Part shown: positions 12,645 through 13,019 of the stretch, piece after piece
Layout: every line of letters begins with the position of its first letter
How positions within the stretch are numbered: position 1 is the first letter of the stretch
Assembly: GCA_039922495.1 (NCBI GenBank)
Contig: JBDTEO010000015.1
Span: forward strand, 844-64,843
Direction: 5' to 3'
DNA: 64,000 nucleotides
DNA from: Candidatus Dormibacter sp.
GTDB taxonomy: Bacteria; Chloroflexota; Dormibacteria; CF-121
The notes under the pieces: model-generated
Told to the model about the DNA's origin: nothing
The model's input: the letters and a program-made list of their open reading frames with translations, nothing else
Databases searched by the model: none
Translations under genes and position numbers: made by a program

Positions 12645-13019
12645 ATGAGCAAGGAAGTCCTAGAGCAGGTGGTTTTGAAGGCGTCCAGTGATGCGCGCTT
12701 CCGGAGTCAGCTGAACGACAACTTCGAAGCCGCCATCCGGCCGTACGACCTCAGCCCCGATGAGAAGTCAAAGCTACGGAGCGGGATCGCCGGCGCGATC
12801 GGTGACGACCGTGAGGTACGGCGGACGATGGCAGCGAGCCACGCGCAGTCCAGCGAGACCGCCAGTAACCAGGCAGCCTCCAACGAAGCACTGTCTCACC
12901 AGGCGGCGACGAACGAGGTCGCGTCGAACGAGGTCGCGTCGAATGAGGTTGCCTCCAACGAGGTGGCGTCCAGCGAGGTCGCGTCGAACGAAGTCGCCAG
13001 CAAGTTGTCGATGGAGTAG
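12645..13019 (+). CDS. Nif11/NHLP-leader-like domain protein with a C-terminal (A-S-N-E-V)n tandem repeat tail
   Basis: N-terminal EVLEQVVLKASSDARFRSQLNDNFEAAI resembles the Nif11 / nitrile-hydratase leader peptide family. C-terminal seven copies of ASNEV are encoded by 15-bp units that differ at synonymous positions. Confidence 0.6.
   Translation: MSKEVLEQVVLKASSDARFRSQLNDNFEAAIRPYDLSPDEKSKLRSGIAGAIGDDREVRRTMAASHAQSSETASNQAASNEALSHQAATNEVASNEVASNEVASNEVASSEVASNEVASKLSME
12895..13000 (+). repeat. 15-bp tandem repeat (about 7 copies, consensus GCGTCGAACGAGGTC) inside the CDS
   Basis: Direct reading of 12886-13000. Copies vary at third-codon positions (gag gtc / gag gtt / gag gtg; tcg/tcc; aac/aat). 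Confidence 0.8.

What the first reader, a model, noticed from the sequence alone, without database searches (positions are those of the whole stretch)
12645..13019. Nif11/NHLP-leader-like peptide with seven in-frame ASNEV pentapeptide repeats under amino-acid-level selection
The first 45 residues (EVLEQVVLKASSDARFRSQLNDNFEAAIRPYDLSPDEKSKL) resemble Nif11 and nitrile-hydratase-type leader domains used by RiPP precursors.

The C-terminus is (ATNEV)(ASNEV)x4(ASSEV)(ASNEV). The 15-bp DNA units differ at synonymous positions. This indicates the peptide sequence is conserved by selection rather than by recent DNA slippage.

No YcaO, LanM or radical-SAM enzyme is nearby. The only adjacent candidates for processing are the M50-cNMP protease and the zinc-ribbon protein, 90 bp upstream on the same strand.

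It could be a novel leader-plus-repeat substrate (proteolytic release of ASNEV-type units?) or a disordered regulatory tail.
Basis: partly seen in the sequence, partly recalled or inferred. Interest (0 to 1): 0.65.

Follow-up and report, generated by a model that had tools for sequence, protein, structure and literature searches.

The report
Leader peptide with repeats beside protease
A small soil-bacterium gene encodes a conserved RiPP-type leader domain followed by a fast-changing tail of short repeats; it always sits behind a membrane protease with a leader-binding domain and two cyclic-nucleotide sensors, a gene set I found described nowhere.

Summary
The ORF at 12645-13019 (+, 124 aa) is a real gene. 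It has six clean 5-residue units (ATNEV, ASNEV x3, ASSEV, ASNEV), not seven.

Differences between units are mostly synonymous: 7 against 2 in the window (p=0.0016). The closest relative shows 13 synonymous against 1 non-synonymous change in the tail. So the tail peptide sequence is under selection.

The N-terminus is a helical leader domain of the nitrile-hydratase-leader (NHLP) clan. It is closest to the Os1348 family and falls just below that family's cutoff. It is not a true NHLP or Nif11 member.

The upstream 728-aa protein is a site-2-type metalloprotease. It has an N-terminal RiPP recognition element (RRE, a leader-binding fold), the same architecture as the daptide leader peptidase MpaP. 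It also carries two cyclic-nucleotide-binding domains.

Protease, a 7-cysteine zinc-ribbon protein and the leader gene sit in this order in every leader-carrying locus I examined. A Crp-family regulator and Crp-like DNA sites often accompany them. Tails vary widely between relatives. No tailoring enzyme is nearby.

Best reading: the peptide is a leader-guided substrate of a cyclic-nucleotide-gated intramembrane protease. What the released product does is unknown. I found no description of this gene set in the literature.

The parts
10084..10112 (+). Promoter-like site (TTGACG-17-CATAGT) ahead of the protease gene
   Evidence: Consensus scan. This is a pattern match only.
10133..12319 (+). 728-aa intramembrane metalloprotease: N-terminal RRE, then a site-2-protease (M50-like) membrane core, then two cyclic-nucleotide-binding domains
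   Evidence: NF041824 daptide_HExxH E=2e-52 (178.5 bits, cutoff 300), NF058609 YydH/LiaK E=1.5e-10, cNMP_binding E=9e-46 in 2 stretches, Peptidase_M50 24.2 bits. PDB profile hit to M. jannaschii S2P 3b4r, E=6e-4.
10241..10477 (+). RRE (PqqD-like leader-binding winged helix), protease residues about 37-115
   Evidence: AlphaFold2 gives three strands then three helices (E43-48, E54-60, E64-68, H70-77, H85-96, H101-113) at pLDDT 74-88. Foldseek probability 1.00 to PqqD 5sxy (TM 0.65) and to TbiB1 with its leader, 5v1u (TM 0.75). LynD, TruD and TglHI also match.
10817..10831 (+). HExxH zinc-binding active-site motif (H229, E230, H233)
   Evidence: Invariant in 17 diverse homologues. Aligned to the HELGH motif of 3b4r.
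11093..11122 (+). NxxPxxxxDG motif (N321, P324, D329, G330), the third zinc ligand of site-2 proteases
   Evidence: Invariant in 17 homologues. Aligned to 3b4r.
11564..12277 (+). Two tandem cyclic-nucleotide-binding domains (about residues 478-590 and 596-715); boundaries approximate
   Evidence: Pfam PF00027, two stretches, E=9e-46. Both keep the phosphate-binding motif (FGERALL...REAT and FGEIALL...RNAT), read from the sequence.
12319..12555 (+). 78-aa zinc-ribbon protein with 7 cysteines; its start overlaps the protease stop (ATGA)
   Evidence: C3, C6, C14, C17, C22, C53 and C56 are invariant in 25 homologues. It follows the protease directly in every cassette locus checked. It is more conserved than the protease.
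12545..12558 (.). Crp/FNR-type palindrome GTGACAAATGACAC (site 1); overlaps the ribbon stop codon
   Evidence: GTG and CAC are invariant across 14 loci. GTG-N8-CAC occurs at this place in 43 of 96 loci, in all three reading frames relative to the ribbon ORF.
12568..12581 (.). Second, imperfect Crp-like site GTGTCGCGCGTCGC, 23 bp from site 1
   Evidence: GTG invariant. The equivalent site is a perfect GTGA-N6-TCAC in L007 and GTGA-N6-ACAC in L019.
12604..12609 (+). Conserved GATACT, a possible -10 box of an internal promoter for the peptide gene
   Evidence: A at position 2 and T at position 6 are invariant in 14 loci. The function is inferred.
12630..12639 (+). Shine-Dalgarno sequence GAAGGAGGTG
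   Evidence: GGAGGT invariant in 14 loci.
12645..12794 (+). Folded helical leader domain of the peptide (residues 1-50)
   Evidence: AlphaFold2 pLDDT 80-89, helices 2-15, 17-25, 27-31 and 38 onward. NF038399 E=1.6e-8 over residues 5-46. Top Foldseek hit 6lk7 Os1348, then SonA.
12795..12842 (+). Conserved junction (residues 51-66, AIGDDREVRRTMAASH); proposed recognition and cleavage region
   Evidence: Conserved in the close family (DDREVRRxMAAS). A64 is invariant in the 13-sequence alignment A1 and nearly invariant in the wider set. A related PERQAA[SR] motif occurs in distant members. Cleavage here is inferred, not shown.
12843..12905 (+). Low-complexity stretch with three degenerate units (ASNQA, ASNEA, LSHQA)
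12906..12995 (+). Six in-frame 15-bp / 5-aa units: ATNEV, ASNEV x3, ASSEV, ASNEV
12996..13019 (+). Non-repeat C-terminal cap ASKLSME plus stop codon
   Evidence: Semi-conserved caps in relatives (SHLTME, S-x-L-T-S, SATE, SYN(V/I)E(H/T)L, QSH(A/P)D).
13040..13063 (+). Intrinsic-terminator-like hairpin with a T run, closing the operon
   Evidence: 9 pairs, 7 G-C.
13080..13784 (-). Crp/Fnr-family regulator (cNMP_binding plus HTH_Crp_2), convergent with the operon
   Evidence: Pfam. Orthologues lie next to the cassette in L004 (55%), L009, L016 and L017 (79-83%), L005-L008, L021, L022 and L103.

Best explanation
The 124-aa product is the dedicated substrate of the protease encoded two genes upstream in the same operon.

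**Proposed mechanism**
1. Residues 1-50 form a small helical docking or leader domain of the NHLP / Os1348 clan. This domain, together with the conserved junction (...DDREVRRTMAAS, residues 53-65), is recognised by the RRE at the N-terminus of the protease.
2. The site-2-type zinc active site then cuts at or near the junction, at the cytoplasmic face of the membrane. This separates the leader domain from the disordered acidic repeat tail.
3. Cutting is gated by cyclic nucleotide binding to the two C-terminal cNMP domains of the protease.
4. Expression of the peptide gene is separately controlled by the neighbouring Crp-family regulator, acting through two Crp-like sites just upstream.
5. The zinc-ribbon protein, translationally coupled to the protease, acts as a partner or regulator of the protease.

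**Shown here**
- Domain architecture and intact catalytic and cNMP motifs.
- Conserved gene order.
- Leader fold and family relationship.
- Purifying selection on the tail.
- Conserved operator-like DNA.

**Inferred, not shown**
- Binding of the leader to the RRE.
- That cleavage happens, and where.
- Gating by cyclic nucleotide.
- What the released tail or leader domain then does.
For: **Operon structure.** A promoter-like site lies at 10084 and a terminator at 13040. The protease and ribbon genes overlap at ATGA.

**Protease.**
- It matches the daptide RRE-S2P leader peptidase model (E=2e-52) and the YydH/LiaK epipeptide protease model.
- H229, E230, H233, N321, P324, D329 and G330 are invariant.
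- A PDB profile search hits the site-2 protease 3b4r.
- AlphaFold2 plus Foldseek place an RRE at residues 37-115, with probability 1.00 to PqqD and to TbiB1 bound to its leader.
- MpaP is described as an RRE fused to a site-2 protease that removes the leader (10.1101/2023.03.08.531785).

**Peptide.**
- NF038399 E=1.6e-8.
- The fold matches Os1348 (6lk7) and the precursor SonA.
- Frankia_peptide, Nif11, nitrile hydratase alpha and LigA form one homologous group of RiPP leader domains (PMC12353581).

**Synteny.**
- Protease, ribbon and leader gene are contiguous in all the leader-carrying loci I examined, including ones where the protease is only 31-36% identical.
- 41 of 71 ribbon-anchored metagenome loci carry a leader-family ORF 16-160 bp downstream.

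**Tail under selection.**

**Cyclic-nucleotide theme.** Two cNMP domains in the protease, a Crp orthologue next door, and conserved GTG-N8-CAC sites.
Against: - No cleavage, binding or product has been observed.
- The protease-ribbon pair also occurs without any leader gene (L005, L033, L038 and most distant ribbon loci). So the peptide is not the only possible client, and the ribbon itself could be the real partner or substrate.
- Known RRE ligands are short linear motifs, not folded helical domains.
- The peptide has no membrane segment, unlike most site-2 protease substrates.
- The structural matches for the RRE and the leader have weak Foldseek E-values (0.2-0.6), although probabilities are high.
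- All curated family cutoffs (NF041824, NF038399, PF02163, PF14407) are missed.
Confidence: 0.55

Rival explanations
1. It is a classical RiPP precursor. The repeat tail is a core, or a string of cores, that is chemically modified by tailoring enzymes and exported by a transporter encoded elsewhere in the genome. The adjacent protease only removes the leader.
For: - The pattern of conserved leader and hypervariable core is typical of NHLP and Nif11 precursors, whose modification genes can be distant (PMC2887384).
- The family prototype Os1348 is tied to antibiotic activity and to GNAT, HExxH and SagB genes (PMC7726476).
- The protease has an RRE.
- Each unit carries Ser/Thr/Asn and an acidic residue.
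- dN/dS within arrays is low.
Against: - No tailoring enzyme or transporter is conserved next to the cassette in any of the loci inspected. The flanks differ from locus to locus.
- The tails contain no Cys.
- In the same cassette, tails reach 200-480 residues, which is far beyond usual core sizes.
- Unit length varies (4, 5, 6, 8, 9 residues).
Confidence: 0.15
2. It is a regulatory proteolysis module. The conserved N-terminal domain is the active part, for example a binding partner or antagonist of the Crp-like regulator, the zinc ribbon or the protease. The acidic tail is a disordered pro-region, tether or degradation signal. Cyclic-nucleotide-triggered cleavage switches the module on or off, as SpoIVFB does with pro-sigma-K or RseP with RseA.
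For: - The N-domain is the conserved part. Tails vary in sequence, period and length but keep an acidic A/G/S/T/D-rich, Cys-free composition.
- The tail is predicted to be disordered.
- There is no export or tailoring machinery nearby.
- The neighbourhood has a strong cyclic-nucleotide signalling theme, with Crp and operator sites.
- Site-2 proteases with C-terminal nucleotide-sensing domains are known (SpoIVFB and its CBS domain; my own knowledge).
- Cleavage after ...MAA would leave an Ala-Ala C-terminus, like the ClpXP tag left on RseA (my own knowledge; speculative).
Against: - Strong purifying selection on each repeat unit (pooled 51 synonymous against 11 non-synonymous differences across five arrays) is more than a composition-only tail would need.
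- No interaction with Crp or the ribbon has been shown.
- Crp is absent from the immediate neighbourhood in L001 and L003.
Confidence: 0.2
3. It is a multi-copy precursor of a short, unmodified, strain-specific signal peptide. Each ASNEV-type unit would be released and act as a pheromone-like signal. Differences between lineages would then be pherotypes.
For: - Units are uniform within an array, kept by purifying selection, and yet differ between lineages (ASNEV, GTVDA, GSAEA, AQTAE, VTADS, NSAEAL...).
- Copy number changes between close relatives.
- M50 proteases such as Eep mature peptide pheromones in Firmicutes (my own knowledge).
Against: - The units have no spacer or recognition sequence between them.
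- An intramembrane metalloprotease is not expected to cut a soluble peptide every five residues.
- The cassette contains no exporter or receptor.
- Long, irregular tails in related cassettes do not fit this model.
Confidence: 0.05
4. The tail folds as a pentapeptide-repeat beta-helix, a Qnr/MfpA-like DNA mimic, attached to a docking domain.
For: - One relative's tail (P0195, ADLSS units) hits true pentapeptide-repeat models at E=2e-11.
- A few relatives carry Pentapeptide_2 hits.
- Period 5 is the commonest period, in 25 of 39 strongly repetitive tails.
- Many units fit the pattern x-[DE]-[AVL]-x-[ST].
Against: - The window's tail gives no pentapeptide hit even at E<=10.
- AlphaFold2 gives pLDDT below 50 for it.
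- Six units would make only 1.5 turns of helix.
- The central Leu/Phe position is missing.
- Relatives have periods of 4, 6, 8 and 9.
Confidence: 0.03
5. It is a lineage-specific low-complexity ORF, or a product of recent replication slippage, with no function.
For: - Low-complexity composition.
- Copy number varies.
- High-GC genomes throw up many spurious ORFs.
Against: - 54 close homologues, and 230 representative clusters matching the leader profile.
- Conserved ribosome-binding site, terminator and gene order.
- All six units differ at the DNA level, with a significant synonymous excess.
Confidence: 0.02

Closest known systems
Os1348 family NHLP-clan proteins (NCBIfam NF038399; Pfam PF14407 Frankia_peptide; crystal structure 6LK7, Pseudomonas sp. 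Os17)
   Same: - Best sequence-family hit (E=1.6e-8).
- Best structural hit.
- A small helical N-terminal domain followed by a variable C-terminus.
- Thought to be a precursor processed by a nearby HExxH peptidase.
- True family members of 371-416 aa sit in the same protease-ribbon-X-Crp arrangement in Chloroflexota MAGs.
   Different: - Scores 34.5 bits against a cutoff of 40, and matches only profile positions 2-45 of 63.
- Os1348 itself is 85 aa with no repeats. It lies beside GNAT, gluzincin/HExxH and SagB-type genes, not an M50-cNMP protease (PMC7726476).
Daptide leader peptidase MpaP and its precursors (RRE fused to a site-2 protease)
   Same: - An N-terminal RRE followed by an intramembrane HExxH protease (NF041824 E=2e-52, aligned over protease residues 58-398).
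- Precursor gene in the same cluster.
- The proposed job is leader removal.
   Different: - Below the equivalog cutoff (178.5 against 300).
- Has two extra cNMP domains.
- No MpaB, MpaC, MpaD or MpaM genes.
- The precursor lacks the ELExMEAP motif, the hydrophobic core and the invariant C-terminal Thr (the window peptide ends ...SME).
NHLP (TIGR03793) and Nif11-type (TIGR03798 / PF07862) RiPP precursors
   Same: - Same clan of long, folded leader domains derived from a nitrile-hydratase-alpha / LigA-like fold.
- Conserved leader followed by a hypervariable C-terminus.
   Different: - TIGR03793 gives 12.9 bits against 50.9. Nif11 models give no hit.
- No Gly-Gly motif at the end of the conserved region.
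- No C39-peptidase ABC transporter nearby.
- No Cys in the tail.
Nucleotide-sensing site-2 proteases such as SpoIVFB (CBS domain) acting on pro-sigma-K
   Same: - An M50 core with a C-terminal cytoplasmic nucleotide-binding module.
- A substrate that is not an integral membrane protein.
- Small accessory proteins encoded alongside.
   Different: - cNMP domains instead of CBS.
- An added RRE.
- The substrate is not a sigma factor.
- The comparison rests on my own knowledge and was not tested here.
Split-borosin precursor SonA and other RiPP precursors with structured leader domains
   Same: The AlphaFold2 leader model matches SonA chains (TM 0.5-0.65 on the target). In both, a folded helical leader domain docks onto its processing enzyme.
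   Different: - No methyltransferase is present.
- Sequence identity is about 20%.
- Foldseek E-values are about 1.

Membership tests
NHLP leader peptide family (TIGR03793) | HMM score at or above the curated cutoff | tested here: not met
   12.9 bits against a cutoff of 50.9, E=0.076.
NHLP leader peptide family (TIGR03793) | [quoted passage not shown] | tested here: not met
   Conservation ends at ...RRTMAAS. The G-x-A-G at residues 47-50 lies 15 residues before the end of the conserved block.
NHLP leader peptide family (TIGR03793) | Linked ABC transporter with a C39 peptidase domain | tested here: not met
   None among the scanned neighbours in the window or in related loci. Distant genomic locations cannot be excluded.
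Nif11-type precursors (TIGR03798 / PF07862) | HMM match | tested here: not met
   No hit at E<=10 in NCBIfam or Pfam.
Os1348 family (NF038399) | HMM score at or above the curated cutoff of 40 bits | tested here: not met
   34.5 bits, E=1.6e-8, profile positions 2-45 of 63. Relatives P0201, P0207, P0193 and P0199 pass at 53-73 bits.
Os1348 family (NF038399) | Fold like the crystal structure 6LK7 | tested here: inconclusive
   6lk7_A is the top Foldseek hit: probability 0.80, 29% identity over 68 columns, but E=0.64 and rmsd 6.1.
Frankia_peptide (PF14407) | Pfam gathering score of 48 | tested here: not met
   20.9 bits, E=4.3e-4. Some homologues carry a precomputed PF14407 hit.
LigA-like / NHLP clan of RiPP leader domains (ECOD X-group, PMC12353581) | Core of three N-terminal alpha-helices shared with nitrile hydratase alpha, LigA, Nif11 and SonA-type leaders | tested here: met
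   AlphaFold2 gives helices 2-15, 17-25 and 27-31, plus 38-50, at pLDDT 80-89. Foldseek hits are Os1348, SonA, OphA, DesB and LigAB. Sub-threshold hits to TIGR04509 and TIGR03793.
RiPP precursor (general definition) | Leader region plus core region, with a leader-recognising (RRE) protein in the cluster | tested here: met
   Conserved leader and variable tail. RRE in the adjacent protease.
RiPP precursor (general definition) | A post-translational modification enzyme acting on the core | tested here: not met
   No conserved tailoring enzyme in the window or in related loci. Enzymes encoded elsewhere are not excluded.
RiPP precursor (general definition) | A modified mature product exists | not testable with these tools
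   Needs mass spectrometry.
Daptide system (NF041824 protease with MpaA-type precursor) | RRE fused N-terminally to a site-2 protease | tested here: met
   Paper 10.1101/2023.03.08.531785.
Daptide system (NF041824 protease with MpaA-type precursor) | Equivalog cutoff of 300 bits; invariant C-terminal Thr and ELExMEAP motif in the precursor; MpaB, MpaC, MpaD and MpaM genes | tested here: not met
   178.5 bits. The peptide ends ...KLSME and has no ELExMEAP. No aminotransferase, dehydrogenase or methyltransferase nearby.
Site-2 protease / peptidase M50 | HExxH and NxxPxxxxDG motifs in membrane helices | tested here: met
   H229, E230, H233, N321, P324, D329 and G330 are invariant. They align to 3b4r, E=6e-4. 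The helices are predicted by AlphaFold2.
Site-2 protease / peptidase M50 | Pfam PF02163 gathering score of 27.2 | tested here: not met
   24.2 bits, E=2.4e-5. Many homologues carry a precomputed PF02163 hit.
Pentapeptide-repeat proteins (PF00805 / Qnr-like) | HMM match and A(D/N)LXX units forming a beta-helix | tested here: not met
   No hit for the window peptide at E<=10. Tail pLDDT below 50. Only the relative P0195 matches.
Crp/Fnr regulator (neighbour gene 13080-13784) | cNMP_binding plus HTH_Crp_2 domains | tested here: met
   E=3.9e-25 and 1.8e-15, both above cutoffs.

The most novel reading that the evidence does not exclude
The cassette is a previously unrecognised kind of ribosomal-peptide system that needs no tailoring enzymes. 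In it, a leader-guided intramembrane protease switched by cyclic nucleotide releases a lineage-specific repeat polypeptide. That product might be an acidic disordered effector, a metal- or mineral-binding or stress-protective polymer, or many copies of a short signal peptide.

Repeat identity evolves in concert within each array. It is held by strong purifying selection in each lineage and yet diverges between lineages. The system is common in soil Dormibacterota and Chloroflexota: at least 549 ribbon-anchored loci in the JGI metagenome collection.
Probability: 0.25. Interest if true: 0.85.

Novelty: new variant of a known kind. Interest (0 to 1): 0.62.

Why it matters
RRE domains and NHLP-type leaders are the two main handles used to mine genomes for new ribosomal natural products. 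Here both occur together in a conserved operon with no modifying enzyme. The protease is wired to cyclic-nucleotide sensing, and the cassette comes with a Crp regulator and its likely operator.

If the peptide is cleaved as proposed, this would be the first case in which leader removal, or peptide release, is directly gated by a second messenger. It would also give a concrete function to a cassette that is abundant in uncultured soil phyla.

The repeat tails are also unusual in their evolution. Units are uniform and under purifying selection within each lineage, but replaced wholesale between lineages. This points to a sequence-specific partner or to a material property, and either idea can be tested.

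Finally, the result corrects two annotations. The peptide is not a Nif11 or NHLP family member. The protein NCBI labels only as "cyclic nucleotide-binding domain-containing" is an RRE-bearing site-2 protease.

Tried and rejected
- **RNA element.** An Rfam scan of 9900-13900 at E<=1 found nothing. RNAalifold on the intergenic region showed no compensatory changes. I therefore read the conserved element as DNA, not RNA.
- **PDB sequence search with the leader profile.** No hit, not even Os1348.
- **Small ORFs upstream of the protease** in L004, L005 and L006. They are unrelated to each other and I dropped them.
- **The cyclase-STAND-TPR genes** next to the cassette in the window and in L103. They are not orthologues, only about 26% identical over local segments. 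Their presence is suggestive only.
- **Iyer et al. 2009**, the source of the Frankia_peptide family. The paper is not held.
- **Literature searches.** Searches for Franean1_4349, daptide plus metalloprotease, M50 plus cNMP, and Dormibacter plus RiPP found no description of this cassette.
- **First structure job.** It ran after I removed them.
- **The genome-contig scan** reached only close relatives, 10 loci.
- **Period-5 analysis of L017.** It was misleading because that array has a 4-residue unit.
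Full report
**1. The observation**

The ORF is at 12645-13019 (+) and encodes 124 aa. It has a strong ribosome-binding site (GAAGGAGGTG, 12630-12639). A terminator-like hairpin with a T run follows at 13040-13063.

Tandem Repeats Finder reports a 15-bp array at 12906-12997 with 6.1 copies, 83% matches and no indels. Read codon by codon, the tail is:
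- ASNQA, ASNEA, LSHQA (three degenerate units)
- ATNEV, ASNEV, ASNEV, ASNEV, ASSEV, ASNEV (six clean units)
- ASKLSME (cap)

So there are six clean units, not seven.

**2. Selection on the repeats**

All six DNA units are different. Measured against the consensus unit GCGTCGAACGAGGTC, there are 7 synonymous and 2 non-synonymous differences. Random change would give a synonymous fraction of 0.26 (binomial p=0.0016).

Independent arrays in relatives show the same bias:

| Array | Unit | Synonymous : non-synonymous |
|---|---|---|
| L003 | GTVDA | 10:1 |
| L004 | NSAEAL | 15:7 |
| L006 | VTADS | 7:1 |
| L010 | GSAEA | 12:0 |

Against the 95%-identical orthologue in L103, the tail (residues 67-124) has 13 synonymous nucleotide differences, one non-synonymous codon (in the cap) and one extra unit. 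The leader has no synonymous and one non-synonymous difference.

The arrays also gain and lose units. Close relatives have four to seven xxxEV units.

**3. The N-terminal domain**

Family scans:

| Model | Result | Cutoff |
|---|---|---|
| NF038399, Os1348 family NHLP clan protein | E=1.6e-8, 34.5 bits | 40 |
| PF14407, Frankia_peptide | 20.9 bits | 48 |
| TIGR04509 | weak hit | - |
| TIGR03793, NHLP | 12.9 bits | 50.9 |
| TIGR03798, PF07862 (Nif11) | no hit | - |

AlphaFold2 with a 49-sequence alignment gives a confident helical domain for residues 1-50 (pLDDT 80-89) and pLDDT below 50 from residue 54 to the end.

The best Foldseek match in the PDB is the crystal structure of Os1348 (6lk7; probability 0.80, 29% identity). 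Many chains of the RiPP precursor SonA follow, then OphA, DesB and LigAB. E-values are weak (0.6-9) because the domain is small. But the hit list is exactly the LigA-like group, which an ECOD curation paper describes as uniting nitrile hydratase alpha, Nif11, Frankia_peptide and other RiPP leader domains (PMC12353581).

Os1348 is an 85-aa protein of Pseudomonas sp. Os17. It is needed for full antibiotic activity and lies next to GNAT, HExxH-peptidase and SagB-type genes (PMC7726476).

The window's peptide is thus a sister of that family within the NHLP clan, not an NHLP or Nif11 member. It lacks the defining Gly-Gly motif at the end of the conserved block (PMC2887384). Conservation instead runs to ...DDREVRRTMAAS.

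**4. The family**

A word-indexed search found 54 close homologues, all from metagenomes or from MAGs labelled Dormibacteraeota or Chloroflexota.

Their first ~65 residues are nearly invariant. The tails differ completely in sequence: ASNEV, GTVDV/GTVDA, GSAEA, GSTDA, GSADA, AQTAE, GTAES, SAESA, 9-residue TSEASSASA-type units, or non-repeated Ala/Ser/Thr-rich stretches.

A profile of the leader run against 1.84 billion representative proteins found 230 clusters at E<=1e-3. They include:
- Tails built of basic or mixed units (REAAT, ALERNQGR, DTLRG).
- Proteins of 200-540 aa that pass the NF038399 cutoff.

Across these, tails are A/G/S/T/D-rich, about 14-17% acidic, almost free of Cys and poor in aromatic residues. 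Among the 39 strongly repetitive tails, period 5 is the commonest (25 tails), followed by 8, 9 and 10. Units of 4 and 6 residues also occur.

**5. The neighbours**

*The protease.* The 728-aa protein at 10133-12319 matches these models:
- The daptide intramembrane metalloprotease model (NF041824, E=2e-52, over residues 58-398).
- The YydH/LiaK epipeptide protease model.
- Two cNMP_binding domains (E=9e-46).
- Peptidase_M50, at 24.2 bits, just under its threshold.

In an alignment of 17 diverse homologues, H229, E230, H233, N321, P324, D329 and G330 are invariant. The profile hits the M. jannaschii site-2 protease 3b4r across exactly these motifs (E=6e-4).

AlphaFold2 of residues 1-445 (pLDDT 72) predicts three strands followed by three helices at residues 43-113. 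About six long membrane helices follow, with a beta-hairpin after the HExxH helix.

Foldseek matches the N-terminal module at probability 1.00 to PqqD (5sxy, TM 0.65) and to TbiB1 bound to its leader peptide (5v1u, TM 0.75). It also matches the RRE-containing LynD, TruD and TglHI. This is a RiPP recognition element.

The daptide paper describes MpaP as an RRE fused N-terminally to a site-2 protease that removes the leader. The architecture here is the same, plus two cNMP domains whose phosphate-binding motifs are intact (read from the sequence).

*The zinc ribbon.* The 78-aa gene at 12319-12555 overlaps the protease stop codon. It has seven invariant cysteines.

*The regulator.* A Crp/Fnr-family regulator lies convergently at 13080-13784.

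*Tailoring enzymes.* None appeared among the flanking ORFs I scanned.

**6. Synteny**

In every leader-carrying locus I examined, the protease and ribbon lie directly upstream in the same order and on the same strand. This holds where the protease is:
- 82-97% identical (L001, L003, L009-L018; L103 carries the 97% one)
- 54-61% identical (L004, L006, L007, L019, L020)
- only 31-36% identical (L008, L021, L022)

In the last group the third gene is a 371-416-aa true Os1348-family protein, and Crp is convergent just as in the window. The genes flanking the cassette differ from locus to locus.

For an anchor that does not depend on the peptide, I scanned the metagenome collection with the ribbon. 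At least 549 loci matched and 80 were kept.
- Of 71 loci with enough downstream sequence, 41 have a leader-family ORF starting 16-160 bp after the ribbon.
- The rest include protease-ribbon-Crp cassettes with no peptide (L005, L033, L038).
- One has a leaderless (VASKR)x9 ORF in the peptide's position (L047).
- Distant ribbons (46-62% identity) have only the protease next to them.

So protease plus ribbon is the core. The leader protein is a frequent client, but not an obligatory one.

**7. Regulation**

The last bases of the ribbon gene and the spacer before the peptide gene hold a conserved element:
- GTGACAAATGACAC at 12545-12558.
- A second, weaker copy 23 bp downstream at 12568-12581.
- A conserved GATACT at 12604-12609.
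- An invariant Shine-Dalgarno sequence.

GTG-N8-CAC occurs at this place in 43 of 96 loci. It appears at offsets -27, -11 and -4 from the end of the ribbon ORF, which covers all three reading frames. So it is not a by-product of protein coding. It is confined to the Dormibacterota-type clade, including the peptide-less cassettes where Crp follows directly.

GTG-N8-CAC is the core of Crp-family sites (my own knowledge). If GATACT is a -10 box, site 2 would be centred near -41.5, the geometry of a class II Crp-dependent promoter (inference).

No Rfam family matches, and there is no covariation that would suggest an RNA structure.

**8. Interpretation**

The evidence best supports a leader-guided substrate of an RRE-bearing, cyclic-nucleotide-sensing site-2 protease, with expression under Crp control.

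- Shown: architecture, motifs, folds, gene order, selection, operator-like DNA.
- Inferred: binding, cleavage near RRTMAA/S, gating by cyclic nucleotide, and everything about what the products do.

The rivals differ mainly in what the tail is for:
- A core modified by unlinked enzymes.
- A disordered pro-region in a regulatory proteolysis switch.
- A string of short signal peptides.
- A pentapeptide-repeat helix.

Some observations weigh against a classical natural-product core and against unit-by-unit release. These are the wide range of tail lengths and unit sizes in one conserved cassette, and the lack of any conserved tailoring or export gene. The strong purifying selection on each unit weighs against a tail constrained only by composition.

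**9. Novelty and score**

The parts are known kinds: an NHLP-clan precursor, an RRE-S2P leader peptidase, cNMP domains and Crp. I found no description of their combination in the searchable literature. NCBI labels the proteins only "hypothetical", "cyclic nucleotide-binding domain-containing" or "Os1348 family NHLP clan protein".

I rate it a new variant of a known kind, with interest 0.62. I give 25% to the reading that it is a distinct, tailoring-free, second-messenger-gated peptide-release system.

Noticed in passing
window 12545-12581 and 12604-12609: Two Crp/FNR-like GTG-N8-CAC sites and a conserved GATACT lie between the ribbon and peptide genes. They are conserved in 14 aligned loci. 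The motif is present in 43 of 96 loci, in all three frames relative to the ribbon ORF. It also occurs in peptide-less cassettes, where it precedes the Crp gene.
   Followed up: partly
window 12319-12555; L005, L033, L038, L046-L093: The 7-cysteine zinc-ribbon protein is more conserved than the protease: 54-58% identical where the protease is 31-36%. The protease-ribbon pair also occurs without any leader peptide gene. The ribbon may therefore be the core partner or a substrate of the protease.
   Followed up: partly
L047 621-833: In the position normally held by the leader peptide, between ribbon and Crp, this locus has a 70-aa ORF with no leader domain and nine basic VASKR units. L005 has a short basic ORF in the same place (8475-8585).
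   Followed up: no
window 5822-8746 (-); L103 4595-7813: A class III adenylate/guanylate cyclase fused to a STAND ATPase and TPR repeats lies near the cassette in the window. A similar but non-orthologous one (about 26% identical locally) lies next to Crp in the closest relative.
   Followed up: partly
L008, L021, L022 and L055-L100 (metagenome loci): Os1348-family proteins of 200-540 aa occupy the same slot after protease and ribbon in Chloroflexota-type cassettes. They carry long acidic tails built of imperfect 20-50-residue repeats, for example RDPENPANARGYIGGE and SRVNDSEPFDLRG.
   Followed up: partly
L007 1388-1780 (P0195): One relative's tail, (ADLSS)n, matches true pentapeptide-repeat families (Alr5209, HetL, Qnr) at E down to 2e-11. 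The window's tail does not.
   Followed up: partly
window 12996-13016 and C-termini of relatives: The last 5-8 residues after the repeats are not repeated and fall into a few semi-conserved caps: S-x-L-T-S/N, SHLTME/SKLSME, SATE, SYN(V/I)E(H/T)L and QSH(A/P)D. This hints at a C-terminal recognition motif.
   Followed up: no
window 12645-13016 against L103 3469-3855: Between the two closest relatives, all 13 synonymous differences fall in the tail (58 codons) and none in the leader (66 codons). Either the repeat DNA mutates or recombines faster, or the leader DNA is constrained at the nucleotide level.
   Followed up: no
window 8828-9982 (-): A 384-aa protein with an apparent N-terminal signal-peptide-like hydrophobic stretch and a cysteine-rich C-terminus lies just upstream of the cassette. 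It has no Pfam hit at E<=1e-3.
   Followed up: no
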